DNA of 64,000 bases from Methanomassiliicoccaceae archaeon UBA328 (GCA_002506905.1 DAYM01000004.1:16147-80146); one strand, 5' to 3'. Numbered from the stretch's first letter, positions 24,202 to 46,211 are shown. A program made the numbers and translations. The notes: generated by a model not told the origin, from the sequence alone.

Positions 24202-24283
24202 TGTGGATGTCGGAGTCATCGGATGACATGATCGGCCTTTCGACGGGATTAGGTTTTTCTAATCTCTCTTCCTTTGTCTCAAT

Positions 24284-24898
24284 ATGGTCAACGGTCAATA
24301 CAGATGCCCTTCCGGCGACGAAGGGAAACAGGTCATATCCTCTATGAACGAACATCATGCTCCGCTCACGGATTGGGCCCTTTCCAATCTTCCCGATATC
24401 GATCCGAAATGGATATTGGATATCGGCTGCGGAGGCGGTATGCTCATCGGAAAGCTCGCCGAGAGGTATCCGGAGGCGTTGATCGACGGCGTCGACATCT
24501 CTGCGGAATCCGTGAAGGCCACCGCGGACAACAATCCCCGCATTGCGGCCGAAGGCAGGCTCCACGTGCTCAAAGCATCGGTGTCCGACCTTCCATACGA
24601 CAAAGGGACGTTCGACCTTGTGACGGCAGTAGAGACGTATTTCTTCTGGCCGAACCCCGAATTGGATATATTCTCTGCCGCGGAGAGACTGGTTCCCGGA
24701 GGCGTGATGATGATCGCTTCCGAAGCGTATCCCGACCCGGAATTCGACGAGGTCAATAATAGGCATTCCGAAGAGTATGGAATGAAACTGCTTCCGAACG
24801 AGAGGTTGCAGGATATAATGTCCGGAGCGGGACTGAGGACGGAGTTCTTCACCGTGAAGGAGAAGAATTGGGTCGTGTTCATCGGAAAGAAGGAGTGA
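24284..24898 (+). CDS. Class I SAM-dependent methyltransferase
   Basis: 204 aa. Motif I ILDIGCGGGML and post-I GVDIS. Confidence 0.8.
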   Translation: MVNGQYRCPSGDEGKQVISSMNEHHAPLTDWALSNLPDIDPKWILDIGCGGGMLIGKLAERYPEALIDGVDISAESVKATADNNPRIAAEGRLHVLKASVSDLPYDKGTFDLVTAVETYFFWPNPELDIFSAAERLVPGGVMMIASEAYPDPEFDEVNNRHSEEYGMKLLPNERLQDIMSGAGLRTEFFTVKEKNWVVFIGKKE

Positions 24899-24901
24899 TC
24901 C

Positions 24902-25435
24902 ATGGTTGCGGATCCGTCGTACGTGCCGAAGGACGGACGTTCTGTCATTTACTTTGCGGGAGGGTGCTTCTGGGGAGTGGAGAAGGCGTTCTCGGTCATG
25001 CGCGGTGTGACGGATACCGAATGCGGTTACGCGAACGGGTTTGACAGACTCATCCCGGATTACATGCTGGTTTGTTCCGGGAAGTACGGTTATTTGGAAG
25101 CCGTGAGGGTGGAGTACGATCCGAAGATCATCGGATCGGACCTTCTGCTGGCGGCGTTCTTCATGATCATCGATCCCACGGACCGGGACAGACAGGGGAA
25201 CGATATCGGGCACCAGTACAACACGGGGATCTACTGGACGGACGAGAGTACCGGCAGGTCCGTGAAAGCGTTCACGGAACAGGAGAGGAAGAAGTACAAG
25301 GTGTTCTACACCGAGATCGGTCCGCTGGAGAGGTTCACCGTCGCGGAACCGGAGCACCAGGATTATCTCGACAGGAATCCCGGAGGGTACTGTCATGTTC
25401 CGGAGAGGACGATCAGGGTGCTGAGGATGTTCTGA
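24902..25435 (+). CDS. msrA: Peptide methionine (S)-S-oxide reductase MsrA
   Basis: 177 aa. Contains YFAGGCFWGVEKAF and GHQY.TGIYW. Confidence 0.9.
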   Translation: MVADPSYVPKDGRSVIYFAGGCFWGVEKAFSVMRGVTDTECGYANGFDRLIPDYMLVCSGKYGYLEAVRVEYDPKIIGSDLLLAAFFMIIDPTDRDRQGNDIGHQYNTGIYWTDESTGRSVKAFTEQERKKYKVFYTEIGPLERFTVAEPEHQDYLDRNPGGYCHVPERTIRVLRMF

Positions 25436-25555
25436 GATCAGATCGTTTTATTCTTCTGCAAATTTGTCAACGGCCGGAGTTCCTGCGCTGTACTCCGATC
25501 ACCAAAAGATCGGTGATCTGCGGATTTTGATAATCTTTGAAACGATCGTAGTATC

Positions 25556-25792
25556 ATGGATTTGGAGTATAATCTGAAGAAATTGGATGACTGGTATGAG
25601 AATGTTCAGGATGATGTTTTCTCAATATCGATCGGACCTGGAAATCTGATGGAGATCATCTTGTATAATTCCCGTAATCTGAGAGTGCAGGATAAACTGG
25701 AATTGTTTGGTTCCCTGGATGATTTTCTGTGTTTGGTTGCAGAGTTTGCGGAGATAAGAATAGAGAAATTCTTCCGGGAAGAGGATCAGTGA
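25556..25792 (+). CDS. Hypothetical acidic protein
   Basis: 78-aa ORF at the left edge of the AT-rich island. No recognisable family. Confidence 0.3.
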   Translation: MDLEYNLKKLDDWYENVQDDVFSISIGPGNLMEIILYNSRNLRVQDKLELFGSLDDFLCLVAEFAEIRIEKFFREEDQ

Positions 25793-25820
25793 ATAATAGA
25801 TCCTGAGACGATCGGATCTC

Positions 25821-25976
25821 ATGGATCAGTATGTTCACGTAGAATGTCCAAAGTGCGGAGGGTATGTTCTTGCTGCAGATATGAAATATTGCGAGTCTTC
25901 GGAGGAGGAGAGATTCGAGTATTATGTTTGCGGGTGCGGGTGTAGGTTCGGAGTAAGATATTTTGTTGACGGGTGA
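25821..25976 (+). CDS. Small zinc-ribbon protein (51 aa; below the ORF-track size cutoff)
   Basis: MDQYVHVECPKCGGYVLAADMKYCESSEEERFEYYVCGCGCRFGVRYFVDG. CPKC plus CGCGC gives a four-Cys ribbon. Confidence 0.35.
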   Translation: MDQYVHVECPKCGGYVLAADMKYCESSEEERFEYYVCGCGCRFGVRYFVDG

Positions 25977-26190
25977 GGAATAATGCTCACTTGGTACGAA
26001 AAAACTTGCATAGTTTTATGATCTGATAGTGTGTATTTAGGTATGCCGTAAAACAGGTCGTGCGATCATCGTAGTTGATAGTTATTCCTGGACAGTTGAA
26101 GACAACAACAATGCAGTAAAGAGGACAGATCTGTCTGTTTTCAAAAATCACGGTACGGCCATTCCGGTAGATGTTAGGTTTTTCTTCGGA

Positions 26191-26874
26191 GTGGACGATT
26201 TCAAAAAGGGCCAACACAGATCAGTAGTTTTGGTTTTTGATGGAAATAGATATCAGGCTAAATTGGAAAAGACCAATTCAACCGCAAATCAGGCCAGATT
26301 GATGTGGAATTTGGACCTTTCTCGTGCATTCAATAACAAGTATCCGAATGTTCTGAAAACCGGGTTATATCCTGAATTAAAGATTATGAAGATCAACGAT
26401 TCGGAATATCATCTGGAGTTCAATAACAAACTTACGCTTCATGAAGTAATAGAACGTGATCTTCAGACGGAAGATAACAATACGGTGATTTCCGGAGGAG
26501 TGGAAGGGGAGAAAAAGCTCGTTATCGGAACCAGATATGAGCGTAACAGCAAAAACCGTGAGGATGCCATCGAGATTCATGGATTAAAGTGTGCCGTATG
26601 CGGTTTTGATTTCGGTGAAGCATATGGTGATGCAGGAAAGGATTACATCGAAGTTCACCATCTCGTTCCTCTTTCAGAAAAAGGAGCTCCTCAGAAGGTC
26701 AATCCGGAAACCGATCTGGTGTGTGTCTGTTCCAATTGTCATAGAATGATACACAGAAGGAAAGGCCAGGTTTATTCAGTCGAAGAGCTGAGAGAGAAGA
26801 TGATCGAGTGCGGCAGCATTCAGGAGATTGATGGTCAACTAATTTTATCGAGGAAGGCCGTCTTAAGAAAGTGA
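26191..26874 (+). CDS. HNH endonuclease with uncharacterised N-terminal domain (probable 5' frameshift)
   Basis: HNH core HGLKCAVCGF..IEVHHLVPLSEKG..VCSNCHRMIH. The frame is open for 50 more codons upstream (KTGRAIIVVDSYSWTVEDNNNAVKRTDLSVFKNHGTAIPVDVRFFFG) with no start codon. An ATG at 26043 is out of frame by one base. Confidence 0.75.
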   Translation: MDDFKKGQHRSVVLVFDGNRYQAKLEKTNSTANQARLMWNLDLSRAFNNKYPNVLKTGLYPELKIMKINDSEYHLEFNNKLTLHEVIERDLQTEDNNTVISGGVEGEKKLVIGTRYERNSKNREDAIEIHGLKCAVCGFDFGEAYGDAGKDYIEVHHLVPLSEKGAPQKVNPETDLVCVCSNCHRMIHRRKGQVYSVEELREKMIECGSIQEIDGQLILSRKAVLRK

Positions 26875-26920
26875 GCCAGTCGATAGTTAAAGCACACTGA
26901 GCACGACATCTGATACAGCA

Positions 26921-28568
26921 TCATATCTGCATAATTGGCCATTTTTCTTTTACACGATTCAACAATTCATCTTGACGATTTTCTATGTCTTTTATAGTCC
27001 ATTCATCTAGGTTCGCAAGAGCTTTTGTATCCGGGATATCTGATTTCAAATACTCTTTTTTCTTAACATTAAATGTTGAATTTTTAATGCGTTCGTTCAG
27101 GGTATGGTGGAGTAACGTCATATTCCCGATTCTGCGACAATATTCTTCGTGTTCGTCTTCTTCAATATTCCATTCACCTATTGATAAAGGCATGATGTGT
27201 TCTAGATGAACTGTTTGACCATTGGGAGATACAATGGTCTCCGAGTGTTCATGTTCATACAGGGATCTTAGAATGATTTTAGCTTCCTTATCTTTGGGAT
27301 CATATGTGGCGAATTTGCTTTCTATCTCTGGATCTTTCGCAGTGAGTTTTATTATCCGTTCAACTACTGATTTGGTGTTCAGTTCATCATTGGTGTCTCT
27401 AATGCAATCTTTGAGAATTCAGTTTCATTTTTATTTGCTACATAGCCCATAATTGCTTGATTTCTTACGATAAGACACTCAATCGCATTCAATATCTTGG
27501 ATATGTCCTCTTTTGATGCATTTTTTGCGCAGGCTGCCAATATTATGGGGTAAAAAGATGTGGCACCTAGGCCCCCTGTAGTTTTTAGGCATTCTACTGA
27601 TTTCTGATCAATGAAATCATTTGTTCTTGGATATACAAGGTATAGGTAATTTTGATATGAATTGAACATGTGCTTTAGAAACTCATCCGCGTCGTCACCT
27701 AATTCATAGGATATCGCTCTAAACAGTGTTTTGCTTCTGACGAATTCGTGGGATGCATTCCAATAGTACCTAAAAAACTTGGAAATATCGGCGCTCTTAA
27801 TCGAGGAAAATTCACTCGTCATTGTCATCCACTTTTCCTTTACAGAGTCAATATTGCGGGCATTTCTAAAAAAGTAATTTTTCAGCAGGTCCTTCACTTC
27901 TAATTCTTTGCCACGAGAATTGAGTGTTTCAAATAGTATGCAAGCTTGTCTGAAATTGTCTGTTTCCACGACTGAAACCTTGAATCTTTTTACAAACGCG
28001 CTCCTATATTTTCCAACAATTTGACTTTGTCATCAAAAGAAAGTCCTTCTAGCAATTCTGATATGTACTTGAATATGTAAGCATAGGCTGCTGCAATTCT
28101 TTTGTTGGATTTATTACTGGCTTTAATGCTGTGATCTCCATCAATTATGTAATCTTTGAAGAAGACTTTGTTGGATCCGCCCATTGTTAAATTGGCACGC
28201 AAATCGCCGTTTTCTTGTTTTTCACCAACACATTCACGAAGAGCGTACGTCATTTCCCAGAGGTTTTCTGCTTTGGAATTTTCTTCCTTTAGTTTTTCTG
28301 CGATATCCCATATTACTTTTAGATAAATCACTGAAGTGCACAACCTTTGTTGTCCATCTATTATGTAGCGCGTATTGTTTCCAAAGTGAGTTTTGATTTG
28401 TCCATACAGATATTCTTCATCATTGCTGTTGATAAAGGAGTGCAAATCGCTAAGAAAGTCAGCAACCTCTTCATTTGTCCATGAATAGTCTCTTTGATAA
28501 TCAGGGACAACAATTTTTTTCTCCAAAAGATCTTTCATTGGTTCTGTTGCCCATTTCATCTCGCTCAT
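26921..28568 (-). pseudogene. GmrSD-like DUF262/DUF1524 nuclease, split by two frameshifts
   Basis: N-terminal DUF262 (VPDYQRDYSW, IIDGQQRLCT) in 27990..28568; middle part (ILFETLNSRGKELEVKDLLKNYFF) in 27379..27969; C-terminal His-Me finger (VHLEHIMPLS..IGNMTLL..N..N) in a third frame down to 26921. Frame changes near 27975 and 27390. Confidence 0.8.
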
Positions 28569-28657
28569 GGTACCAAAGTGGCATGGTTCAAAAAGTAAAT
28601 AGATCTCTTGGAAAATAGTGTACACATTGTGCACTGTTCGGTAGTGTACCATTGCAG

Positions 28658-31627
28658 TTATTGAGCAATATACGTGAATAAGGAGTCATCAATTGTACAT
28701 CTAAGTTTCATTGGAATATTCACAACACTCTCTCCGCCGGTCTCCGATTCTTTCATCTTATCGACAATCGGATCAACCAATCCCATGTAGTAAAAGTCCG
28801 TTCCTTCTCCGTCTGCCTTCTTGACAAACAAAGGAATAACCATGCCGGTTTTCCTGTAATTTCTGATCGCTACAACTTCCGGGCTGTCCATCTTCACTCT
28901 CGAACGTGTGATCCAGCTGAAAGTGTTCCTGTCGATGAAACGGTCATCGTACTTCGTGGTCTCGCTGATATCTTCGTCTTTATTGTATGTAACGAAAATC
29001 GGACATGTGTTGTGCTTAATCCTGTAACCGTAGATCGTAGAATACTCGTTCTTATCCCAATTCAGGATTCTGCAGACGTCCGATCTGGAATATTTGGAAA
29101 ACAGAACAAATCCAGCTTCATCGCAATCGGAATATTCTTTCCTGTTGATCTCCAATCCGCATTTGATCACGTCTTCGAAATACGATTTGAACGGGAGATC
29201 CCGGAGGTACTCCGACAGAACCGGACTGAGCACAAGTTTGTTTTCTCTTTTTACAATCAGGTTTCTGTAAGGATATTTTTTCGCAGTCGCTTCCACAACG
29301 AATCCGCCGGTAAGAATGGAAACCGCAGACTCGATCGATTTCTTACTGTATCCTCTGGACAGCAGATCTTCGATTCTGATCTTCCCATTCCTGACCACCT
29401 CGTTCAGTATCACCAATTCTTCCGGTCTTTTTCCGTTCAGGAATTGTGTAGAGACAAATCTGAGAACTTTGATTTCGTCTTCGGACATCTTATCCGTTGC
29501 GATTTTCAGTTTGTTTCTGAAATCATACAGGCTTTCGGAGTAATCCACGACAACTCTGGGATCCAGCGATCCGTTCTCGTACAATTCGACCAAAGTCGGA
29601 TCCCTTCCCAATCTCACTTTCATGTTGCTGTACTCGTATTTCAGAGTAGCCAGCTTGGAAAGATTCGTTCTGTTGATGCAATCGTAGATCCTGTCTTTCG
29701 TGATCGTATCGAAGTTGACGCTGGAGCATCCGGGAACGATGCTGTTGCCGCTTATCAGATATCTGCGGGCGTTGTCTTTGTTGCAGGACCTGTCTCCGGA
29801 GAACGCAATTGGAATCAGGAAATTGTTGGTGTAATTTCCGATGAAGTCTATGATGACCACGTAGTCTTTGTTATTCGCCTTACGGAGGCCTCTTCCGAGC
29901 TGCTGAACGAACACGATGGCCGATTCCGTAGGTCTGAGCATGAGGATCTGATTGATGGCGGGAATGTCCACTCCTTCGTTGAAGATATTGACCGTTAGAA
30001 TATAGTCCAAACAATCGTCGCCGGTGTCCTTTTCAAGTCTTTCGACCGCAGCCTCTCTTTCGTCGGGAGTGTTGTTTGCGGAAAGTGCCAGAGTTCTCAA
30101 TCCTCTATCATTCATCTTATCGGAAAGAACTCTCGCTTCGTCTGTTCTGCTGCAGAAGATCAATCCCTTCACTCTGCCGCCGGTATGCGAGTAATAGTCG
30201 GCTTTGTCAAGGATGTGTTTGACACGTTCGTCGGATGTCAGCGTGTTGAATGATGTGTTGTCGTCCAGAGCCTTTCCGTTCACGGTGATATCGGAAATTC
30301 CGAAATAATGGAAGGGACAGAGCATATCCTGTTCCATAGCCTTCTGAAGTCTGATTTCGTATGCTATGGTGTGATCGAATAAAGCAAAAACATCTCCTCC
30401 GTCCATTCTCTCCGGAGTTGCGGTCATTCCGAGCATGAATTTCGGACGGAAATAGTCGATGATGCGTTTGTAGGAATCCGAGAATGCGTGATGGGCTTCA
30501 TCGCACACGATGTAATCGAAGTGATCTCTTTGGAAATGTTCCATCACTTCTTTTTTCGACATTGTCTGGATGGTTGAAAACAGCATATCCGCGTTGTAAT
30601 CCTTGCTGTTGCCGGACAGAATTCCGTATGTGAATTTTGACCCCAGGACTTTGCCGTAGCTGTTCTTTGCATCTTTCAGAATCTGTTCTCTGTGAACCAG
30701 AAACAGGACTTTTTTGGCACCGAATTCTCTGACGTCGAAAGCCGAAAGATAGGTTTTTCCCGTACCTGTAGCGGATATCAGAAGAGCTCTGTCTTTGCCG
30801 TCACGGTGTATTTTATCCAGATTGATCAGAGCCTCTTTCTGCATATCGTTGGGCTGGAGAAGATCGTATCCTTTTTCGGTGAAGATTTCCTTTGAACGTT
30901 CCATCCTGGCTCTTTTGTATCTCGGGATGTAATCATCGATCCATTCGTCGGTGAGAACGGTAGAATCCGACCACATTGTTTCGAATTCGGATATCGTATC
31001 TCTGAGGAGTTCTCCGTCGTCTAAAGAAGACAATTTCAGATTCCATTCTTTGTTGACTGCGAGAGCATCCGCGGTAAGATTGGAGCTTCCGATGATCATC
31101 GTGTCAACATCTTTTCCGTGGAAGATGTAGCCTTTTGTGTGGAAGCTGTCCTTCTCGTACATTCTGATTTCGAAATCGGTGTTTTTCAGCAGCCATTTCA
31201 GAGCGTTCGGATCGCTGAAATTCAGATAATCGGTTGTGATTATGCGTCCTTTGACCTGACGTTCTTTCAATTCTTCGAATTTCTGGAACAGTCCTGTGAT
31301 TCCGCCCATTGTTATGAATGCAACGGAGAAGTCGAAAGATTCGCATTTGTCCAGTTCGGAAACGATGGATGTGCTGACTTTGATCTTCTTTTCAAAATCG
31401 TTGTAGATCAGCTTTGGCCTGTATGATTCGTTTGATTCTTTGTCTTTATCGACTATTGCAGTAATGGCCGATTCAGACAGAATGTCCGCCAGAGAATCAT
31501 CAGGATTCATTGATTGGAAAGCTGCGGCATGGCTAATTAAGGTATCGGTGTTAGAACTAATTTGAATGATTATAGAGCCCATCTCGACTATTATGTTCAC
31601 TATTTGAATTTCTGAGTCTGTTTTCAA
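28658..31627 (-). CDS. SauUSI-like PLD nuclease / SF2 helicase / DUF3427 fusion (type IV restriction-like)
   Basis: PLD motif FHTKGYIFHGKDVDTMIIGSSNLT; helicase motifs SATGTGKTY, CDEAHH and QQLGRGLR; C-terminal DUF3427-like region (FSKYSRSDVCRILNWDKNEYSTIYGYRI). Start uncertain: ATG codons at 31582 and 31510 are more plausible than the TTG at 31627. Confidence 0.8.
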   Translation of the reverse strand: MKTDSEIQIVNIIVEMGSIIIQISSNTDTLISHAAAFQSMNPDDSLADILSESAITAIVDKDKESNESYRPKLIYNDFEKKIKVSTSIVSELDKCESFDFSVAFITMGGITGLFQKFEELKERQVKGRIITTDYLNFSDPNALKWLLKNTDFEIRMYEKDSFHTKGYIFHGKDVDTMIIGSSNLTADALAVNKEWNLKLSSLDDGELLRDTISEFETMWSDSTVLTDEWIDDYIPRYKRARMERSKEIFTEKGYDLLQPNDMQKEALINLDKIHRDGKDRALLISATGTGKTYLSAFDVREFGAKKVLFLVHREQILKDAKNSYGKVLGSKFTYGILSGNSKDYNADMLFSTIQTMSKKEVMEHFQRDHFDYIVCDEAHHAFSDSYKRIIDYFRPKFMLGMTATPERMDGGDVFALFDHTIAYEIRLQKAMEQDMLCPFHYFGISDITVNGKALDDNTSFNTLTSDERVKHILDKADYYSHTGGRVKGLIFCSRTDEARVLSDKMNDRGLRTLALSANNTPDEREAAVERLEKDTGDDCLDYILTVNIFNEGVDIPAINQILMLRPTESAIVFVQQLGRGLRKANNKDYVVIIDFIGNYTNNFLIPIAFSGDRSCNKDNARRYLISGNSIVPGCSSVNFDTITKDRIYDCINRTNLSKLATLKYEYSNMKVRLGRDPTLVELYENGSLDPRVVVDYSESLYDFRNKLKIATDKMSEDEIKVLRFVSTQFLNGKRPEELVILNEVVRNGKIRIEDLLSRGYSKKSIESAVSILTGGFVVEATAKKYPYRNLIVKRENKLVLSPVLSEYLRDLPFKSYFEDVIKCGLEINRKEYSDCDEAGFVLFSKYSRSDVCRILNWDKNEYSTIYGYRIKHNTCPIFVTYNKDEDISETTKYDDRFIDRNTFSWITRSRVKMDSPEVVAIRNYRKTGMVIPLFVKKADGEGTDFYYMGLVDPIVDKMKESETGGESVVNIPMKLRCTIDDSLFTYIAQ

Positions 31628-31689
31628 TTAGTTTATGTTTTTTAAGATAAATGCGCCCTAGTTATCATTAAATATACAGCTATTAATTA

Positions 31690-31714
31690 CATATTGGATG
31701 TTTAATCCAATATG
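31690..31714. promoter_or_regulatory. 10-5-10 perfect inverted repeat in the divergent intergenic region
   Basis: CATATTGGAT-gttta-ATCCAATATG, between the SauUSI-like gene and the ABC binding-protein gene. Confidence 0.3.
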
Positions 31715-31777
31715 CTTATTAACGAGTAGTCGAAACAAGAAAATTTTCGATGAAACTAATAAATACTGAGAGAAAAA

Positions 31778-33121
31778 ATGGATAAAAAAGTATCAGCCAT
31801 AATAGTAGTGGTGATTCTTCTCGCTGCAGGACTCACAGGCGCTATTTATGTTTTGAATAATAATAACAAAGAAACGTCAGTGAGTTATGCAGGAGACGTC
31901 AAGATCTACGGAAATGCAAATAATGACGATACTATCAGCAGTGCAGATATCGATGTATTGAATGATCTGATAGTTAATCAAAATTATACTGAAACCGACT
32001 ATCCCTACGCGGATGCTGACCAGGATGGAGAAATAACTGCTTCCGATGTCGAAGTCGTTCAGAATATAATCGATGGAAAGGAGACGATCATTTACTACGT
32101 CAATTATTTTGATTCAGTAAGGACGATTCACTATCCCATTACAGGAACGATCGGTACGAGCTTCTGACAGCAGGCAGAGCTTACAGTCATACTGGGAATT
32201 TGGGATAAGGTAGCTGCCGTCGATACAAGTACGCAGTCAAATGCATCTAATGCAGAGAAATATCCAGGTATCGAAAATCTTTTTGATCTCGGAAGCAGGG
32301 ATGCAATGACCGCAGAAGCAATTCTGGCTAGCGGAATATCTGCATTGATCTGTCATGGAAATGCTTCCTCATCTACTGAGGATTTGATTACAGACTTTGA
32401 AGAAGCAGGTAAGACAATAGATATTATTTGTCTTGGATGGGAAGGAATGAATTGCCTTTCAACTGCTTTGATGATGGGAATATTCTTCCAGGTGGAAGAT
32501 GCGGCACATGAATATGTTGATTGGTGTAATGGTATTCTTAACAAACTGAAAACAGCCATTGACACTCTCGATGAAGACGATGTAGCTACGGTCATACTTC
32601 CGTTGATGTACACAAAGCAGTCTTCGAATATCAGGATCGAGTGTGAAGGTACTGGTTCATATTCATTGGTCAGTCAGATTGCAAATGTTGTTGATCTTGA
32701 AGATGCTACATATGAGACTAAGAACAGAGCTTACAGAACGGCAGAATGGTTCCTCTCTGAAAATGAAAATGGTCTTTTTGATTATATTCTGATTATGGAG
32801 GAAGGAAGCGGTCTGGGTTCTACGAATGAATCATATAATGCGCGTTTCGAGGCGTCCATTGAATATTTTGTTCAGTGTCCCGCATATGAGCAGGGGAGAA
32901 TTGGAGGAACAACATACGGATTCGGCGGTTTCTCTGGATTCTCACTATTGACATATGTGGCATTTGTGCTGTACCCGCAACTCTTTACCGAGGATCAGGG
33001 TCTGGAAGACAGGCAGTATTGGTTCGATAATTTCACCAACCAGACGGTTGATGTGAACAACATGGCCTGGCGTTACACCGGAACAGCATATGAAGAGTAT
33101 GTTGATAGGATGGACAGTTGA
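31778..33121 (+). pseudogene. FecB/BtuF-type ABC substrate-binding protein with N-terminal anchor and dockerin-like module; in-frame TGA
   Basis: ORFs 31778..32167 and 32306..33121 share one frame, and the only stop between them is the TGA at 32165..32167 (GTSF-TGA-QQAELTVILGIWDKVAAVD). N-terminal TM helix followed by two dockerin-like repeats. Confidence 0.75.
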
Positions 33122-33127
33122 ATAATC

Positions 33128-33157
33128 AGCGTCCCTTCAGGGACGCTTCTTTCTTTT
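33128..33157 (+). terminator. Hairpin plus T-tract
   Basis: AGCGTCCC-ttca-GGGACGCT followed by TCTTTCTTTT, 7 nt after the stop codon. Confidence 0.4.
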
Positions 33158-33164
33158 AATTAAT

Positions 33165-34297
33165 ATGACAGAAAATAAGAGCGAATCTTATAGCGAGTGT
33201 GTCGTTGATTCCATAGCGTTGTGGAAGGACGATTCCGAGAAAGCCAAGGAAGAGCGCGTCAGTGCTAATCGTGAATATAAAAGAAGTACTGCTGTAAAGC
33301 TGTCATTCATTGTTATCTGCGGTTTGATTGCCATAGTTGTTATGGGAGTATCTCTGACCGCTGGGCAGTATGATATTGGTTTTTTTGAGTCGTTTGAGAT
33401 TGTTTATCAGCATATCACTGGCAATATTCAGGATGTGACCAAGGACTATGTGATCTGGGATCTGCGTATGCCCAGGATAATGACTGGAGTTCTTACCGGA
33501 GCTGCCCTGGCGGTTGCAGGTGCGACCATGCAGAGCGTTTTAAAGAATCCGCTGGCAGATCCATATACTACAGGTATATCGTCCGGAGCGGGTTTCGGTG
33601 CAACACTTGCGATATGATAGGAGTATCATTTGCAAACGGCGGATACATGGTCGTGGCCAATGCGTTTATTTTCTCATTAGTGCCAACGGGTGTAATCATA
33701 CTTGTATCGAAGATGAAGGGTGCATCGCCGACGACTATGATCATGGCGGGAATCGCAGTCATGTACATTTTTAATGCATGTACATCGTTGATCAAAATGT
33801 ACGCAAATCCCGATGCCTTATCCAGTCTTTTCCAGTGGACAGTAGGTTCTCTGGACGGTACCAGATGGGAAGATGTAATGGTCATGATGCCATTTGTTAT
33901 CGTCGGAATAATTGCGATACAGCTGTTATCCAGACAACTTAATGTTTTGATGCCGGGGGATGAAAGTGCAAAGATGCTTGGTGTCGATGCAGACAAATTG
34001 CGTATGATTACCATCATTCTGATCGCTCTGATCTCTGCAACTGTAGTAAGTTTCACAGGTCTGATCGGATTTATCTGACTTGTGTGTCCGCATATCGTAA
34101 GGTTGTTCATTGGATCTGATAACCGTTATTTGATCCCGGCATCTTTGGCATTCGGTGTGGCATTGTTACTTTTCGCCGATCTGGTCGGCCGTACAATCAT
34201 TGTGCCCAGTGTATTGCCTGTAGGTATCGTAACTGCATTCATTGGAGGTCCATTGTTCTTGTACCTGATCGTGAAGCAGAAAAAGAGTGCGTGGTGA
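33165..34297 (+). pseudogene. FecCD/BtuC-family ABC permease, with a frameshift and an in-frame TGA
   Basis: Three pieces: ..NPLADPYTTGISSGAGFGATLAI / MIGVSF.. (1-nt shift at about 33615), then ..GLIGFI-TGA-LVCPHIVRLFIG (TGA at 34076..34078, same frame). Confidence 0.85.
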
Positions 34298-34301
34298 TAT
34301 C

Positions 34302-35126
34302 ATGGAGCTAGTAATGAAAGATCTGTGTTATCGTTACGGTGATGGGCCGATGATATTGAACAACATCAATCTGACATTCGAAGGCAGTAAGCTGTATTGT
34401 ATCATTGGGCCGAATGGAGTGGGAAAGTCAACCCTGGTCAAATGCATGAACAAGCTTTTGAAACCTGTGTCTGGAGATGTGTTGATCGATGAAAAGAGCA
34501 TATCCGATTATTCCTTTAAGGATCTGGCACAGTTTATGAGTTTCATCCCTGTTTCTCAAGGATATAGTTTCAGGATGACTGTTATGGATGTTGTTCTGCT
34601 CGGAAGATATGATCCTAAGAAATGGAGGACTGACGAGGAAGATCTGGACATAGTTCATAGATCTCTTAAATTGATGGACATGGAAGATTATTCTATGAGG
34701 GACATCAATGGGTTGTCAGCGGGTCAATGTCAAAAAGTGAATCTTTGTAAAGGGTTGGTCCAAGAACCGAAGATTATGATTCTGGATGAACCCACATCAA
34801 ATCTGGATGTCAAACACCAGATGTATGTGACCGAGCTACTCAAAGCAATATCTCGGGAATCAGATATGATGGTTATTATGATCAGTCATGATTTGAACAT
34901 AGCTGCCCAGTTTGCAGATGAGATCATTATGATGTCTGAGCCAGGCGTTGTGTACAAGGATGGAAGGCCCGAGGAAGTAATCTCAGCAGAATCAATCTCT
35001 AAGGTCTACGGAGTAGATTGTGAAGTGATAACCCATTTGGGGAAGCCTCATGTTCTTCTAAACAGTGCATTGTCTAAGAGACAGATGAATGAAATGGCCA
35101 AGCGCGATGTTGAAACTGTTAACTAA
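34302..35126 (+). CDS. FecE/BtuD-type ABC ATPase
   Basis: Walker A GPNGVGKST, signature LSAGQCQK, Walker B MILDEPTS. Confidence 0.85.
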   Translation: MELVMKDLCYRYGDGPMILNNINLTFEGSKLYCIIGPNGVGKSTLVKCMNKLLKPVSGDVLIDEKSISDYSFKDLAQFMSFIPVSQGYSFRMTVMDVVLLGRYDPKKWRTDEEDLDIVHRSLKLMDMEDYSMRDINGLSAGQCQKVNLCKGLVQEPKIMILDEPTSNLDVKHQMYVTELLKAISRESDMMVIMISHDLNIAAQFADEIIMMSEPGVVYKDGRPEEVISAESISKVYGVDCEVITHLGKPHVLLNSALSKRQMNEMAKRDVETVN

Positions 35127-35135
35127 ACTTTTTAT

Positions 35136-35157
35136 CGAGGAGAAATCCTCGTTTTTT
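35136..35157 (+). terminator. Hairpin plus T6
   Basis: CGAGGA-gaaa-TCCTCG-TTTTTT, 10 nt after the stop codon. Confidence 0.4.
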
Positions 35158-35161
35158 CTTT

Positions 35162-35203
35162 AACTCGGTAGCGTCAAAAACGTATACTCAACGCTACCGA
35201 GTT
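35162..35203. repeat. 13-bp perfect inverted repeat between convergent genes
   Basis: AACTCGGTAGCGT-(16 nt)-ACGCTACCGAGTT. Confidence 0.8.
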
Positions 35204-35246
35204 GGAGGAATTGAAATGGTTTGTGGCCTCCCGCGTCTGTCTATGT

Positions 35247-35744
35247 TCAGAAGAACTCGAATCCTCCCGACAGATCTCCTTTCTCTGCGCACTCTTCCAG
35301 ATGATCCGCGAACTCGTTCGCGAAACCCGGCGCAAAGCATTCAAGAAGTCCGTCCTGCGGGGTCCTGAGGCCTTCGATGACCGTTCCGAGATATTCCTTT
35401 GCGTCATCCGTCTTTCCGAATGTTTCCAGCAGGAAGATGTCGGACTGTATCAATACCAAGTTGTTGTAAAGATGCATCCTGGCGCATCTCTCGGTATCTT
35501 TCATGTGGACATATCCGCGTCCGTTCAGATCGAGGAAGTCGTCGATATCAAGGTTCCTGGCATCGAAGACATCTGCGAGGATATCGTCCCTGTTCATGCT
35601 TATGGTATCGCTCAGGGCCTTTCTCACAGATCTCATGATCTTTTCTTCGCCGATCTCTTCGGCGATCGTTATCATGGCCGCGATCATCTGTTCGTTCTCA
35701 AGGCAATTCAATTTCATTTCCAATTCCGACACGTTTGTTGTCAT
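35247..35744 (-). CDS. Acidic helical protein, paralogue 1 of 2
   Basis: 165 aa. Shares pattern with the 35847 gene: CLENEQMIAAMITIAEEIGEEKI versus FLDDHNLIDIIIGLAEKIGEDKV, and GLRTPQDG versus GLRTKEGN. Confidence 0.5.
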   Translation of the reverse strand: MTTNVSELEMKLNCLENEQMIAAMITIAEEIGEEKIMRSVRKALSDTISMNRDDILADVFDARNLDIDDFLDLNGRGYVHMKDTERCARMHLYNNLVLIQSDIFLLETFGKTDDAKEYLGTVIEGLRTPQDGLLECFAPGFANEFADHLEECAEKGDLSGGFEFF

Positions 35745-35846
35745 AATTGCAACAGGGCCGGAAATCCACTTAAAAAGCGGATACTACAATTAGTACTGTA
35801 CGTCATAGGCTCGAAAAAAAGGGGATGATGGTATCGAACGATCCGG

Positions 35847-36299
35847 TCATTCGGCGCGTTTGCTTATGGTAAGATTCTCGACACCTTTCTCTTTTACGAG
35901 AGCTTCGATGCTGTCGGCGCAATAGTCTGCGGTCCTCTGGACATCTTCCGGAATGTTACCTTCCTTCGTCCTCAGTCCGACGACTATCTCGCACAGGAAT
36001 TGTCTGATGTCGTCGTAGCGCTTAGCGGCATAGAGCATGGAGATCTCCTTTCTGAATCTGTTACTCAGTTCCGAGCGCATTTCGTCAACGGATGCATAGG
36101 CGAGATTCTCTTTGATGGAGATGACATCGTCGAATATCTCGTCGGGATCGACCTCTATTGCCTCTGTGACCTTCTCGGCGACGACCTCGAATACCTTGTC
36201 CTCTCCGATCTTCTCGGCCAAGCCTATTATGATATCAATTAAGTTGTGATCATCGAGAAATTGCAAAGTGGATTCGAGTTCTGTACAATTAGGAGACAC
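35847..36299 (-). CDS. Acidic helical protein, paralogue 2 of 2
   Basis: 150 aa. See the evidence for 35247..35744. Confidence 0.5.
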   Translation of the reverse strand: MSPNCTELESTLQFLDDHNLIDIIIGLAEKIGEDKVFEVVAEKVTEAIEVDPDEIFDDVISIKENLAYASVDEMRSELSNRFRKEISMLYAAKRYDDIRQFLCEIVVGLRTKEGNIPEDVQRTADYCADSIEALVKEKGVENLTISKRAE

Positions 36300-36443
36300 A
36301 CATAATAAAGTACAGTATTGATATTAAAGCAATATGATGTTACTTTTTACAATTGTACGTAACACTCATACGAATTATCCCTTTATTCATTGAAAACTGT
36401 TCCCTGGCCGTCGTACGAAGGCCAGGGAACATCATCAATATCG

Positions 36444-37016
36444 TCACTCTTCGGCGATGCCTTCGATGCGTCTGCACATGTACGCGTATATCAGGGAGAT
36501 GGCGAACATGACGATACCGAATATCGCGGATAACCAGGATCCGAGATGCTCCGGAAGGGCGTCGGCAACAGGTTCGCAGTACGCAAGTACCATTCCCAAC
36601 GAGAACAGGACATAAGAGACGGAAAGCATGGCGAACGTGCGGTCCTCATCCTGCCAGGAGCGGACAGCTATTGCAACGAACACTATCGCACCGATAAGGT
36701 CGAGTATCCAGAGGCAGCAGCAGGAGAAGTTCAGAAATACCGCAATGGCGAATATTATGTTGATGTCTCCGACGGCCATCATCGCGATCGGCTGCAGTTT
36801 GACGCCTCTGCTGAATGCGAAAAGTCCCACGGCGATAACGGCGATATCCAATACGGCACACACGATGAAATACAGCGTACCATCGATGCCTTAGGGTCCG
36901 ATAACGGTGCCCAGGACGTAAAGGGAGATCACCAGGGTGATCAGTCCCATCAATATTGTACCGAAACTCAGGACGGAGGCGGCCCCGTCGAGGCCGGTGT
37001 TCTTCTGATCGGTCAT
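36444..37016 (-). pseudogene. Six-TM membrane protein paralogue interrupted by an in-frame TAA
   Basis: ATG at 37016, 41 codons (MTDQKNTGLDGAASVLSFGTILMGLITLVISLYVLGTVIGP), TAA at 36891..36893, then the same frame continues GIDGTLYFIVCAVLDIAVIAVGLFAFSRG. It aligns without gaps to the 37108 paralogue. Confidence 0.7.
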
Positions 37017-37107
37017 GCATCTCATAATAAACTAAATGTGTATAAAACTATCATAAGGAAAGGTTCGTTCCGACGGCTGGCGCCGTCGGAACTGTTGTTT
37101 TGAAGTT

Positions 37108-37668
37108 TCAGAGATCGTCCTCGTCGTAGTCCTCATTCGGTTCACTTACGGTGTACCAGCAGGATACGGCGTAGATCAAGGAGATCGCGAACGCGACGAA
37201 TCCGAAGAATATGACCATCCACGTTCCGAAGTCTCCGGGAAGCCAGTCTGCGACAGTAGAATAACCGGTCAGAATGAATCCGAGGCAGTACATCAGAAGT
37301 GCGATCGCGAACACGGCGAACGTCTTGTCCTTCTCGTGCCATGACATCGTTGCCACGACGGCGAGGATGATGGCTTCCAGAACATCTATGAACCACAGTG
37401 TGGTCGCATCCGCGCCGGCATATTCGGCGTATGCGAATCCGATATTGGCGCATCCCAGGACCAGCATGGCGATGGCCTGCGGAGCAAGTCCGTTCCTGAA
37501 TGCGAATATTCCCGCGATCACCACTCCGATCCCGAAGAATATGGATATGATATCGTATCCCTTGAGATCCATGGAAAAACTGCTTGTAACATCGCCGAGC
37601 ATGAATGCGGAGACGAGCGCAACGTTGATTCCCAACAGGATGGTACCTGCGGTGAAGACAGAGATCAT
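37108..37668 (-). CDS. Six-TM membrane protein, family uncertain (possibly HdeD/DUF308-like or GPR1/FUN34/YaaH-like)
   Basis: 186 aa with about six hydrophobic helices and an acidic tail (EPNEDYDEDDL). No diagnostic motif such as NPAPLGL. Confidence 0.5.
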   Translation of the reverse strand: MISVFTAGTILLGINVALVSAFMLGDVTSSFSMDLKGYDIISIFFGIGVVIAGIFAFRNGLAPQAIAMLVLGCANIGFAYAEYAGADATTLWFIDVLEAIILAVVATMSWHEKDKTFAVFAIALLMYCLGFILTGYSTVADWLPGDFGTWMVIFFGFVAFAISLIYAVSCWYTVSEPNEDYDEDDL

Positions 37669-37775
37669 CTCACCCAGACGGGTGGTCTCATTGTCAGTTA
37701 TAAGATATGAACCGATGTTTTTGCATATTAATACTATTGCAATATTTCAGTACAAAAAATACCAGATGATGCCGA

Positions 37776-41338: not shown

Positions 41339-41469
41339 ATTATCACGCGATCAGCATCTGTATCCGCTTATCCGCAAGGTCGTTGGACGTATCTTCCAAT
41401 AAGAATGTCCCGGTCTGTATTTATCTTTATAGTGACGTCTGTCGGCAGGCCGGGGTCATATCCGTATCT

Positions 41470-41817
41470 TCAATGGGAGATCGGTTCGTAATCCAATTCG
41501 GAACACGCATCAGTAGCTTCCAACTTGAATATCACGGGCCTGAGTCCGTCGTTGCAGCTGCATATCGCCACACCCGGTTTCCTGATCTAATCTCCGAAGT
41601 AGAACGTCTCCTTTCCGGCGCCGTGCGCAAGGGCGAACACGTATTGGTAGATCGCTTTCCAGGCCTCGTCGCAGAATCCTTCCGGTTTGGCGTAATCCGC
41701 GTAGAACACATCTCCTTCCCTTAGCATGGGGCATTTCCCGAGGCCTTCGGCACCGTATTCCTCGGCGAGGTCCTCGTTGAACATCGTCCGGATGACCGTT
41801 ATCTTGACCTTTCTCAT
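41470..41817 (-). CDS. TIGR04076-family protein with an in-frame TAG at codon 77
   Basis: MRKVKITVIRTMFNEDLAEEYGAEGLGKCPMLREGDVFYADYAKPEGFCDEAWKAIYQYVFALAHGAGKETFYFGD-TAG-IRKPGVAICSCNDGLRPVIFKLEATDACSELDYEPISH-TGA. TAG at 41587..41589. Confidence 0.65.
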
Positions 41818-41863
41818 GAATAAAGAATGGAGGTCGTTGTTAATCAATATATAGAAATGTATC

Positions 41864-41879
41864 GGGGGCCGAAGCCCCC
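41864..41879 (-). terminator. GC hairpin 3' of surface-protein paralogue 1
   Basis: GGGGGC-cgaa-GCCCCC, 15 nt after the stop codon. Confidence 0.35.
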
Positions 41880-41893
41880 TGTGAAAGCGGTTT

Positions 41894-42847: not shown

Positions 42848-42900
42848 GGATTGAAATGGCGGTTATTCCAGGTAAAGGAGATGGTAGAAAAAATAAGAGT

Positions 42901-42914
42901 GGGGCCGGAGCCCC
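42901..42914 (-). terminator. GC hairpin 3' of surface-protein paralogue 2
   Basis: GGGGC-cgga-GCCCC, 11 nt after the stop codon. Near-identical to the hairpin at 41864. Confidence 0.35.
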
Positions 42915-42924
42915 GGTTTAAAGA

Positions 42925-43863: not shown

Positions 43864-44106
43864 TCTTTTAGCGTGAATATTCTCACCATGAAAGTACTCG
43901 GTTATAGACTATATTATAATTATCCGCATTTTCGAAAGAACATGGGCCGATCGGTTCCGAAAATACGTAACCGCGGAACAACAGTATCGTACTGTCCGTT
44001 CCAAATAAACATGTTATATACGGGTGCGTGCGCCCGTTCTTTGGCGCCGTTACTCACAGCCAGAAAGAAACGATACGGTTCTCACAGCATCGATCCGAAG
44101 CAGAAA

Positions 44107-45069: not shown

Positions 45070-45192
45070 GTACCAGCAACGGACGAAGTTCTGCAGTATT
45101 TTTTAGGTTACGAAGATAATTTTTAACCGATTTCAATTTCTTGACGGATATCAAGAAGTCGGCGATCGGATGTCGTCAAAGAAGAGTGGTAA

Positions 45193-45278
45193 TGGCGCCG
45201 AGGGAGAGATTCGAACTCCCGAGGTCAGGGACCAGCGGTTTTCGAGACCGCCGCCATACCGGGCTTGGCTACCTCGGC
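45193..45278 (-). tRNA. tRNA-Ser (anticodon CGA), CCA encoded
   Basis: GCCGAGG acceptor stem pairs with CCTCGGC; anticodon arm GCGGT-CTCGAAA-ACCGC; long variable arm; T arm GGGAG-TTCGAAT-CTCTC; ends in G-CCA. Confidence 0.9.
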
Positions 45279-46177: not shown

Positions 46178-46211
46178 ATATCATGGCGTTCATGCCATTT
46201 CGGGGACTTAC

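What the first reader, a model, noticed from the sequence alone, without database searches (positions are those of the whole stretch)
25556..31627. AT-rich island made only of modification-dependent-type nucleases, with one of three intact
Three adjacent genes all resemble type IV (modified-DNA-dependent) restriction enzymes, and I see no methyltransferase among them. They are an HNH endonuclease with an extra N-terminal domain, a DUF262/DUF1524 GmrSD-like gene, and a 989-codon PLD nuclease / SF2 helicase / DUF3427 fusion. The last has the domain order I recall for Staphylococcus SauUSI. The first two are frameshifted; the SauUSI-like gene is a single open frame. By eye the block is clearly AT-richer than the flanks (MsrA side, and beyond 35.2 kb), which suggests horizontal acquisition. 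Two tiny ORFs (78 aa, and a 51-aa zinc ribbon) sit at its left edge.
Basis: partly seen in the sequence, partly recalled or inferred. Interest (0 to 1): 0.6.

Follow-up and report, generated by a model that had tools for sequence, protein, structure and literature searches.

The report
Decaying restriction island in methanogen hotspot
A low-GC stretch of a gut or fermenter methanogen genome holds one intact SauUSI-type enzyme that should cut methylated foreign DNA, next to two nuclease genes that are truly broken; the stretch sits in a variable slot beside a serine tRNA gene, and it is an ordinary though neatly documented archaeal defence island.

Summary
At 28658-31627(-) there is an intact 989-codon PLD / SF2-helicase / DUF3427 gene. 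It aligns end to end with S. aureus SauUSI (PDB 7CLG, E 6.6e-228), and every catalytic motif I checked is present.

Next to it lie two broken genes. A GmrSD (DUF262/DUF1524) gene has two frameshifts. An HNH gene has a one-base frameshift right after its ATG. The same lesions occur in six other metagenome contigs that differ from the window by SNPs, so they are real mutations rather than assembly errors.

The block is among the most AT-rich DNA in the genome. Its 5-kb GC is 0.413 against a genome mean of 0.515.

The interpretation needs three corrections:
- The HNH enzyme carries a B3-like DNA-binding barrel, not a known methyl-base reader, so its type IV status is unproven.
- The low-GC block runs on to 35.2 kb and also holds a decayed iron-type ABC importer.
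- The SauUSI-type gene is a frequent occupant of a variable slot between msrA/dnaJ and tRNA-Ser(CGA) across the family. In other genomes that slot is empty, or holds a Sau3AI-like methylase system or other defence-like genes.

Across strains the island is 5-8 times less diverse than its flanks, which points to recent spread. Verdict: a new member of a known kind, of modest interest.

The parts
24902..25435 (+). msrA, the native left anchor of the variable slot
   Evidence: Pfam PMSR 1.3e-49. GC 0.567 and GC3 0.78. Syntenic with msrA in G003, G004, G001 and G005.
25556..25792 (+). 78-aa orphan ORF at the left edge of the island
   Evidence: No Pfam, PADLOC, NCBIfam or PHROG hit. No homologue in 40 related genomes. 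GC 0.397.
25821..25976 (+). 51-aa CxxC...CxCxC zinc-ribbon ORF
   Evidence: Zn_ribbon_3, E 0.0045, below Pfam's cut-off. Only weak motif-level matches elsewhere. Strain L020 carries an in-frame 6-bp deletion at 25929-25934.
26043..26874 (+). HNH nuclease pseudogene: B3-like DNA-binding pseudobarrel plus a McrA-type HNH domain. A one-base frameshift follows directly after ATG-CCG (26043-26051).
   Evidence: HNH PF01844 1.6e-07. The HNH region matches EcoKMcrA 6GHC, E 1.8e-06. AlphaFold model: mean pLDDT 85.8, N-domain above 90. Foldseek finds B3-like domains. The first in-frame start is the GTG at 26191, which would cut off 50 residues of the barrel.
26921..28568 (-). GmrSD (DUF262/DUF1524, PADLOC HEC-06-like) pseudogene with two frameshifts, at about 27993-28029 and about 27394-27403. 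The DGQQR and HLEHIMP...GNMTLL motifs are still present.
   Evidence: GmrSD_N 2e-21 and GmrSD_C 2.6e-19. HEC-06 PDLC04157 matches all three pieces. tblastn of an intact 544-aa homologue hits three different frames.
28658..31627 (-). Intact SauUSI-family type IV restriction enzyme (PLD nuclease, SF2 motor, coupler, DUF3427/SRA recognition domain). The likely true start is the ATG at 31510, giving 950 aa.
   Evidence: Motifs H163xK165, GSSN180, GTGKT288, DEAH376, TATP402 and QQLGRGLR575. Homologues align only from about residue 24-57 onward. The single strain SNP (29987) is synonymous.
31778..35126 (+). Low-GC FecCD/BtuF-type ABC importer in the same island. The binding protein has an in-frame TGA at 32165-32167, the permease is split into three ORFs, and the ATPase is intact.
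   Evidence: ORF map. The TGA was read directly. FecCD and ABC_tran calls come from the twin contigs. GC 0.426.
45193..45278 (-). tRNA-Ser(CGA), the right anchor of the variable slot, which spans 25436-45192
   Evidence: ARAGORN. The same tRNA lies next to proA and next to the SauUSI homologue or other cargo in relatives.

Best explanation
This is a defence island in a chromosomal hotspot of a Methanomethylophilaceae-type methanogen.

The hotspot is the gap between the dnaK-dnaJ-...-msrA backbone and tRNA-Ser(CGA)-proA. In this genome it has grown to about 19.7 kb (25436-45192).

Its AT-rich left part (about 25.5-35.2 kb) carries three solitary nucleases:
1. An intact SauUSI-family enzyme.
2. 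A GmrSD-family gene inactivated by two frameshifts.
3. A B3-like/HNH nuclease gene inactivated by a frameshift at codon 3.

Inferred mechanism for the surviving gene, by homology to SauUSI. The C-terminal DUF3427/SRA domain flips out and recognises 5-methyl- or 5-hydroxymethyl-cytosine on incoming DNA. This switches on the SF2 ATPase, which translocates along the DNA. The dimeric N-terminal PLD (HxK) nuclease then cuts. The host is safe because its genome encodes no C5-cytosine methyltransferase.

The GmrSD and HNH genes came from low-GC donors and are now dead. They were already dead when the block last spread through the population, because every sampled strain shares the same lesions inside a block of very low diversity.

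Shown: gene content, lesions, composition, synteny, strain diversity, absence of a C5 methylase.
Inferred: substrate specificity, activity, and that the SauUSI-like gene is what selection keeps.
For: Domains and full-length match to SauUSI. The catalytic His equivalent to SauUSI H119 and the helicase motifs are present (PMC7913695 for H119 and the SRA fold of the recognition domain).

No PF00145 match in the own genome.

Frameshifts were mapped and are shared by six non-identical metagenome contigs.

Composition.

Synteny and hotspot:
- The backbone order is conserved.
- The slot holds a lone SauUSI homologue in G004, G001 and G021, and one in G019.
- It holds a C5-methylase, Vsr and MutH/Sau3AI-like nuclease in G003 and G012.
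- It holds a helicase-nuclease in G075 and AAA_14/DUF4143 ATPases in G050, G020 and G024.
- It is empty in G005, G007 and five genomes of one genus.

Strain diversity: about 10 differences in 24.8-38.0 kb, against 40 in 16.2-24.8 kb and 62 in 38.0-47.7 kb (Poisson P 1.6e-20). For L086, 3 against 28 (P 2e-7).

The only SNP in the 2.9-kb SauUSI ORF is synonymous.
Against: - No activity, expression or methylation data exist.
- The intactness of a 2.9-kb ORF is only mild evidence for selection. About 6 lesions in about 6.7 kb of neighbouring genes predict about 2.7 lesions in it, so P(0) is about 0.07.
- No integrase, att repeats or inverted repeats mark how the DNA arrived.
- The SauUSI gene is inverted relative to the copies in relatives and lies 13.5 kb from the tRNA, so its history in the slot is not simple.
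- Presence of SauUSI-like genes shows no anticorrelation with C5 methylases across 25 family genomes (both 5, SauUSI only 7, methylase only 6, neither 7).
Confidence: 0.8

Rival explanations
1. The two 'frameshifted' genes are intact in reality, and the lesions are assembly or sequencing errors in AT-rich DNA.
For: The lesions are single-base shifts. Two of them lie near short A-runs: A4 at 26049-26052, and A4/A5 at about 27993-28029.
Against: Contigs from other samples and assemblers (JGI, ENA, Logan) differ from the window by 2-69 SNPs or indels, yet have no indel at any of the three sites that each contig covers. The third site, about 27394-27403, has no homopolymer.
Confidence: 0.03
2. The frameshifts are functional: phase-variable contingency switches or programmed ribosomal frameshifts, so that HNH and GmrSD are still made in some cells.
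For: Restriction genes are classic phase-variable loci in bacteria (established knowledge). The HNH lesion sits at codon 3, next to an in-frame stop.
Against: The repeat tracts are only 4-5 nt, too short for slipped-strand switching. All seven assemblies are in the same OFF state. GmrSD would need two independent shifts. No slippery heptamer or structure was looked for or seen.
Confidence: 0.04
3. The SauUSI-like gene is an old, vertically inherited resident of the slot, and only HNH plus GmrSD are foreign. The AT-richness of the whole block is then a composite, not one island.
For: - Homologues sit in the same slot in two other species of the genus and in two other genera.
- All five genus copies fall in one clade.
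- GC3 is 0.55 for SauUSI against 0.33-0.43 for GmrSD and HNH.
Against: - The window's allele is closest to that of G005 (71%), where the gene lies outside the slot next to tRNA-Ser(TGA). It is only 58% identical to the G004 allele, although core proteins place the window nearer G003/G004.
- It is inverted relative to the slot copies.
- G004's allele has GC3 0.20 in a genome whose genes have GC3 near 0.7, so alleles at this slot are replaced horizontally.
- SauUSI lies inside the same low-diversity block as HNH and GmrSD.
Confidence: 0.2
4. The HNH enzyme was a sequence-specific nuclease of unmodified DNA (type II-like, B3 reader as in BfiI and EcoRII) that arrived without its methylase. It was inactivated because it was toxic, so it was never a type IV enzyme.
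For: - B3-like fold of the N-domain.
- BfiI, with the same kind of reader, cuts unmodified DNA and sits next to a methylase (bioRxiv 10.1101/2025.03.31.646159; PMC3973309).
- The lesion at codon 3 is the sort of knockout expected for a toxic gene.
Against: - Homologues are usually solitary, in prophage-like or mobile contexts, with no methylase of their own.
- In other proteins the same B3-like plus HNH core is fused to modified-base readers: ScoMcrA-like head PF26345, EVE, DUF3427.
- The closest relative sits beside an intact GmrSD.
Confidence: 0.25

Closest known systems
SauUSI of Staphylococcus aureus (type IV, ATP-dependent, S5mCNGS; PDB 7CLG)
   Same: Same four-part architecture and length (about 950 against 953 aa). 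Colinear alignment of residues 51-987 to chain residues 9-951, 762 bits. Conserved PLD His/Lys, helicase motifs I, II, III and VI, and a full-length DUF3427 recognition region. Solitary, with no methylase.
   Different: The host is an archaeon. Specificity and activity are untested. There is no upstream NUDIX gene here, whereas one precedes a homologue in L025. The gene sits in a tRNA-Ser hotspot and is inverted relative to its relatives.
GmrSD / BrxU / SspE-type DUF262-DUF1524 enzymes (PADLOC HEC-06 and 'Orf5' models)
   Same: N-terminal DUF262 with DGQQR and C-terminal DUF1524 His-Me motif. The pieces cover most of the HEC-06 profile, positions 11-556 of 558 apart from two short gaps at the frameshifts.
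   Different: Broken by two frameshifts in every strain seen. Only 34-45% identical to the nearest intact homologue inspected. The subfamily's substrate is unknown.
EcoKMcrA (PDB 6GHC) and the SRA-HNH / EVE-HNH type IV enzymes (ScoA3IV, TagI, VcaM4I)
   Same: HNH beta-beta-alpha-metal domain with the CxxC...HH...CxxCH pattern. The best sequence match in the PDB is the HNH domain of EcoKMcrA. It is a two-domain reader plus HNH design.
   Different: The reader domain is a B3-like pseudobarrel, not an McrA N-domain, SRA or EVE domain. The gene is frameshifted at codon 3.
B3-like (DNA-binding pseudobarrel) readers of restriction enzymes: LlaJI.R1 N-domain, BfiI-C, EcoRII-N
   Same: Fold of residues about 10-130. 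Foldseek: 6c5d E 2.2e-4, TM about 0.54; plant B3 domains TM 0.5-0.58; BfiI-C TM 0.40.
   Different: Those readers are coupled to GTPase motors, PLD or PD-(D/E)XK nucleases, not to HNH. They read unmodified sites.
Defence islands and integration hotspots next to tRNA genes in bacteria
   Same: A variable-content slot flanked by conserved core genes and a tRNA. Cargo is mostly restriction or defence genes, it turns over between close relatives, and its composition is atypical.
   Different: No integrase, att repeats or mobile-element genes were found in the window's slot. The lineage is archaeal (Methanomassiliicoccales).

Membership tests
SauUSI family (type IV ATP-dependent restriction) | N-terminal PLD/HKD nuclease domain with the catalytic His (H119 in SauUSI) | tested here: met
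   PLDc_2 1.2e-11. H163-T-K165 aligns with SauUSI H119-A-K121. H119A is the published nuclease-dead mutant (PMC7913695).
SauUSI family (type IV ATP-dependent restriction) | SF2 helicase-like ATPase with motifs I, II, III and VI | tested here: met
   ResIII 1.9e-40 and Helicase_C 9.7e-13. GTGKT288, DEAH376, TATP402 and QQLGRGLR575.
SauUSI family (type IV ATP-dependent restriction) | C-terminal coupler plus DUF3427/SRA target-recognition domain, colinear with SauUSI | tested here: met
   DUF3427 4e-82 over profile positions 1-279 of 280. 7CLG alignment to chain residue 951 of 953.
SauUSI family (type IV ATP-dependent restriction) | No cognate methyltransferase, and host DNA lacks the target modification | tested here: inconclusive
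   No DNA methylase is adjacent, and PF00145 has no match in the genome. The actual methylome was not measurable.
SauUSI family (type IV ATP-dependent restriction) | ATP-dependent cleavage of 5mC/5hmC DNA | not testable with these tools
   Needs biochemistry or an in vivo restriction assay.
GmrSD family | DUF262 (GmrS-like) N-domain and DUF1524 (GmrD-like) His-Me nuclease C-domain | tested here: met
   GmrSD_N 2e-21 and GmrSD_C 2.6e-19. All three pieces match HEC-06 PDLC04157.
GmrSD family | A single open reading frame encoding both domains (a functional member) | tested here: not met
   Three frames and two frameshifts, the same in the other assemblies.
McrA-like / PUA-HNH type IV enzymes | HNH catalytic domain | tested here: met
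   PF01844 1.6e-07. EcoKMcrA HNH match, E 1.8e-06. Invariant C184, C187, H206, H207, C230, N232, C233, H234 and H238 across 57 homologues.
McrA-like / PUA-HNH type IV enzymes | A recognised modified-base reader (McrA N-domain, SRA, EVE, YTH or ASCH) | tested here: not met
   No Pfam hit in residues 1-130. The model's N-domain matches B3-like pseudobarrels, not PUA-superfamily folds.
McrA-like / PUA-HNH type IV enzymes | Intact ORF | tested here: not met
   The ATG at 26043 is out of frame by one base, and the first in-frame start (26191) removes 50 residues of the folded N-domain.
tRNA-anchored genomic island (integrative element) | Insertion adjacent to a tRNA gene, with variable content among relatives | tested here: met
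   The slot is bounded by tRNA-Ser(CGA) at 45193-45278. Its size ranges from 22 bp to more than 11.8 kb across 26 genomes.
tRNA-anchored genomic island (integrative element) | Integrase and flanking direct (att) repeats | tested here: not met
   No integrase among the Pfam hits for ORFs of 35-46 kb. No repeat of the tRNA end and no meaningful direct or inverted repeats.

The most novel reading that the evidence does not exclude
The msrA/dnaJ to tRNA-Ser(CGA) slot may be a family-wide archaeal defence hotspot in which m5C-writing systems (Sau3AI-like methylase + Vsr + nuclease, seen in G003 and G012) and m5C-reading SauUSI-like enzymes (own genome, G004, G001, G021, G019) replace one another. 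On this reading, the 10-13-kb low-diversity block in this species records a recent population sweep driven by the one intact gene, the SauUSI-like enzyme. The two dead nucleases hitch-hiked along with it. This would be an epigenetic arms race among co-resident methanogens and their viruses that is visible in metagenomes.
Probability: 0.2. Interest if true: 0.55.

Novelty: new member of a known kind. Interest (0 to 1): 0.3.

Why it matters
The finding gives a clean, population-verified example of turnover among defence genes in a host-associated or fermenter methanogen lineage (Methanomassiliicoccales-type), whose viruses and restriction barriers are poorly known.

It has a practical side. An active m5C-dependent SauUSI-type barrier would block transformation with DNA prepared in Dcm+ E. 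coli, as it does in staphylococci. That is useful to know for anyone trying to build genetics in these archaea.

It also maps a hotspot next to tRNA-Ser(CGA), which can be mined for archaeal defence genes. And it flags a widespread B3-like/HNH nuclease family whose dependence on DNA modification has not been tested.

Tried and rejected
I substituted independent metagenome contigs found by exact-protein look-up.
2. Anticorrelation between SauUSI-like genes and C5 methylases across 25 family genomes. None was found (both 5, SauUSI only 7, methylase only 6, neither 7).
3. att repeats, inverted repeats or an integrase that would explain the insertion and the inversion of the SauUSI gene. Nothing meaningful was found.
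4. Homologues of the 78-aa and 51-aa ORFs in 40 relatives. The 78-aa ORF is an orphan, and the 51-aa ORF has only zinc-ribbon motif hits. No family hits either.
5. NCBIfam and PHROGs added nothing beyond generic helicase and HNH labels.
6. Naming the unidentified 21-sequence clade nested with the genus's SauUSI copies. The cluster look-up returned almost no names. One member (L025) sits behind a NUDIX gene on a 55%-GC contig.
7. Fetching the rest of the L020 metagenome contig through the genome search.
8. I first recalled PDB 6GHC as TagI. The Foldseek table labels it EcoKMcrA, so I corrected this.
9. A first tree used wrong antisense ORFs for two high-GC genomes. It was rebuilt with homology-selected ORFs.


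Full report
WHAT IS THERE

The window is contig C12:16147-80146 of a 1.42-Mb, 14-contig archaeal genome. One close homologue of the main gene is named 'Candidatus Methanomethylophilaceae archaeon'.

Between msrA (24902-25435, Pfam PMSR 1.3e-49) and about 35.2 kb, GC falls from 0.52-0.57 to 0.37-0.46. Genome-wide, 1-kb windows have mean GC 0.515 and sd 0.036. The 5-kb window at 26.9-31.9 kb (0.413) is the third lowest in the whole genome. GC by gene:
- msrA 0.567
- 78-aa ORF 0.397
- 51-aa ORF 0.455
- HNH 0.421
- GmrSD 0.367
- SauUSI-like 0.449
- iron-type ABC importer 0.426

Third-position GC is 0.65-0.78 for native neighbours, 0.33-0.38 for GmrSD, 0.43 for HNH and 0.55 for the SauUSI-like gene.

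THE THREE NUCLEASES

(a) The SauUSI-like gene, 28658-31627(-). It is a single 989-codon frame from a TTG.
- Pfam finds PLDc_2, ResIII/DEAD, Helicase_C and a full-length DUF3427.
- PADLOC's mREase_IV model PDLC03658 matches end to end (7.5e-236).
- Against the PDB, the best hit is SauUSI itself: 7CLG, E 6.6e-228, query residues 51-987 against chain residues 9-951.
- The residue equivalent to the published catalytic H119 is H163 in an HxK...GSSN motif. Helicase motifs GTGKT, DEAH, TATP and QQLGRGLR are all present (PMC7913695).
- Homologues align only from residue 24-57 onward, so the real start is probably the ATG at 31510 (950 aa; SauUSI has 953).

(b) The GmrSD gene, 26921-28568(-). It is read in three frames. 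An intact 544-aa homologue aligns as residues 1-156, 177-375 and 379-531 in three different frames. This places one frameshift at about 27993-28029 and the other at about 27394-27403. The DGQQR and HLEHIMP...GNMTLL motifs are still intact, so the decay is recent.

(c) The HNH gene, 26043-26874(+). It has an ATG followed by CCG TAA. The long open frame (VCRKTGRAII...) is one base out of register with that ATG, and its first in-frame start is the GTG at 26191. An AlphaFold model built from 57 homologues (mean pLDDT 85.8, N-domain above 90) shows that residues 12-50 form strands and helices of the N-terminal barrel. Starting at the GTG would therefore decapitate that domain.

WHAT KIND OF ENZYME IS THE HNH PROTEIN

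Foldseek against the PDB finds the following:
- For the N-domain: the B3-like N-domain of H. pylori LlaJI.R1 (E 2.2e-4), plant B3 domains (LEC2, FUS3, VAL1; TM 0.5-0.58) and the BfiI C-terminal recognition domain.
- For the C-terminal half: EcoKMcrA, the same chain that the sequence search matched over the HNH domain.

So the protein is a B3-like pseudobarrel plus a McrA-type HNH domain. It is not an SRA-, EVE- or McrA-N-type reader.

B3-like readers of BfiI and EcoRII recognise unmodified sites (PMC3973309; bioRxiv 10.1101/2025.03.31.646159). On the other side:
- The 714 homologues are mostly solitary 245-255-aa proteins in gut bacteria.
- Some carry an extra ScoMcrA-like head, EVE or DUF3427 domain.
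- They sit in prophage-like or mobile contexts, or next to other defence genes, without a methylase of their own.
- The closest relative (63% identity, on a 36%-GC contig) lies beside an intact GmrSD.

Modification dependence of this family is therefore plausible but untested.

ARE THE LESIONS REAL

Instead I looked up contigs that encode exactly the same proteins.

Three of these contigs, from JGI sample 3300038313 (two overlapping stretches of one record) and from ENA ERZ27283045, are identical to the window over their overlap. The first is probably the source of the assembly, so these do not count as independent.

Six others differ from the window and come from other samples:

| Contig | Identity to window |
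|---|---|
| L020 | 99.73% |
| L022 | 99.78% |
| L023 | 99.89% |
| L024 | 99.77% |
| L084 | 99.66% |
| L086 | 99.83% |

None has an indel at any of the three lesion sites that it covers. The frameshifts are therefore real and fixed. They do not look phase-variable: the A-tracts are only 4-5 nt long, and all assemblies are in the same state.

THE SURROUNDINGS: A HOTSPOT

tblastn of the window's genes against relatives shows a conserved backbone:

dnaK - dnaJ - TerC-like gene - GNAT gene - msrA - [slot] - tRNA-Ser(CGA) - proA - proB - tRNA-Val - MATE - kae1

In the window the slot is 25436-45192 (19.7 kb). I then located proA in 60 of 61 family genomes and fetched its upstream side in 40 of them. 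Slot contents, pooled, including the loci fetched earlier:

| Slot content | Genomes |
|---|---|
| Lone SauUSI homologue next to tRNA-Ser (co-directional with msrA in G004 and G001; G021 has no msrA there) | G004, G001 (same genus), G021 (another genus) |
| SauUSI homologue about 2.6 kb from the tRNA | G019 |
| C5-methylase + Vsr + MutH/Sau3AI-like nuclease cassette | G003, G012 |
| 1535-aa SF1 helicase with an MTES_1575 nuclease domain | G075 |
| AAA_14/DUF4143 ATPases | G050, G020, G024 |
| P-type ATPase | G002 |
| Empty, or under 150 bp | G005, G007, G008, G041, G054, G063, G072 |

No integrase or att-like repeat was found in the window's slot.

HISTORY OF THE SauUSI-LIKE GENE

More than 8000 database proteins match at E below 1e-50. 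In a maximum-likelihood tree:
- The five copies from this genus fall in one well-supported clade, together with an unidentified 21-sequence group.
- The copies of G021, G019, G020 and G011 form a separate clade among bacterial sequences.
- G008 is separate again.

Within the genus, the window's allele is closest to G005's (71% identity). G005's copy lies outside the slot, next to tRNA-Ser(TGA). The window's allele is only 58% identical to G004's, yet all ten backbone proteins compared place the window closer to G003/G004 than to G005 or G001.

Allele composition ranges from GC3 0.20 (G004, whose flanking genes have GC3 near 0.7) to 0.92 (G001, native). The window's copy is also inverted relative to the slot copies. 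Taken together, the gene family is a long-term resident of the slot, but individual alleles are exchanged horizontally.

GmrSD_N, by contrast, occurs in only 5 of 41 relatives and in no other member of the genus.

POPULATION SIGNAL

Differences between the window and the L020/L084 strain type:

| Region | Differences |
|---|---|
| 16.2-24.8 kb | 40 |
| 24.8-38.0 kb | about 10 |
| 38.0-47.7 kb | 62 |

The Poisson probability of so few in the middle region is 1.6e-20. Against L086 there are 3 differences in 27.1-35.3 kb and 28 in 35.3-45.2 kb (P 2e-7).

The low-diversity block coincides with the low-GC island, so it gives independent borders: left at about 24.8 kb, right at about 35.3-38 kb. Because pseudogenes evolve neutrally, low diversity here means recent common ancestry of the block. 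It therefore spread among strains after HNH and GmrSD had already been broken. The single difference inside the SauUSI-like ORF is synonymous (N547).

MECHANISM

The mechanism is inferred by homology to SauUSI (PMC3141236, PMC7913695):
1. The SRA-fold recognition domain senses 5mC or 5hmC.
2. This activates the SF2 ATPase, which translocates along the DNA.
3. The dimeric PLD nuclease cuts.

The own genome has no C5-methylase gene, so self-DNA should be spared. Across the family there is no anticorrelation between SauUSI-like genes and C5 methylases. That is expected if the specificities differ.

VERDICT

This is a typical defence island with gene turnover. Its features of note are an archaeal host, population-verified pseudogenes, a mapped hotspot, and a B3-like/HNH nuclease family of untested specificity. 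It is a new member of a known kind, of modest interest.

Noticed in passing
window 24800-38000: Strain-to-strain divergence drops 5-8 fold exactly over the low-GC island: about 10 differences against 40 and 62 in the flanks for L020/L084, and 3 against 28 for L086. This suggests a recent recombinational spread or sweep of the block.
   Followed up: partly
window 31778-35126: The FecCD/BtuF-type ABC importer inside the same island is decayed. The binding protein has an in-frame TGA at 32165-32167 and the permease is split into three ORFs, while the ATPase is intact. One strain (L020/L084) has a further 1-bp deletion at 33380.
   Followed up: partly
L018 8605-11759 (G003) and L044 480-3674 (G012): The same three-gene cassette (C5 cytosine methylase, Vsr, MutH/Sau3AI-like nuclease) lies directly beside tRNA-Ser(CGA) in two different genera. 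It occupies the slot that holds SauUSI-like genes elsewhere.
   Followed up: partly
L013 9540-12398 (G004): The SauUSI homologue of this complete genome has GC3 0.20 and GC 0.29-0.31, in a region whose other genes have GC3 near 0.7. It is a far starker compositional island than the one in the window.
   Followed up: no
L012-L015 (G005, G004, G002, G001): Species placed in the same genus span regional GC from about 0.44 to about 0.66. SauUSI alleles track the host composition in G001 and G005 (GC3 about 0.9).
   Followed up: no
L025 7581-10808: A SauUSI homologue from the unidentified clade is immediately preceded by a NUDIX gene with no gap between the two genes. No NUDIX gene accompanies the window's copy.
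   Followed up: no
L035 4922-8497 and L036: A 49%-identical intact B3-like/HNH gene sits next to an intact FecCD/Peripla_BP_2/ABC_tran importer, with an integrase nearby. This echoes the HNH plus iron-importer neighbourhood of the window.
   Followed up: no
L067 2898-7505 (G075): A 1535-aa HRDC / DUF4011 / SF1 helicase / REase_MTES_1575 protein occupies the tRNA-Ser slot in another genus. It is likely another defence gene.
   Followed up: no
genome contig C5, about 26000-37000 (outside the window): This is the lowest-GC stretch of the genome (5-kb GC 0.373-0.378), lower than the island studied here. Its content was not examined.
   Followed up: no
window 25929-25934: Strain L020 has an in-frame 6-bp deletion in the 51-aa zinc-ribbon ORF. 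This is compatible with, but not proof of, the ORF being coding.
   Followed up: no
window 24263-24898 and 45305-46180: Two generic class-I SAM methyltransferases (Methyltransf_25/11/31) flank the slot. They have native composition and no DNA-methylase family hit, so they are not partners of the nucleases.
   Followed up: partly
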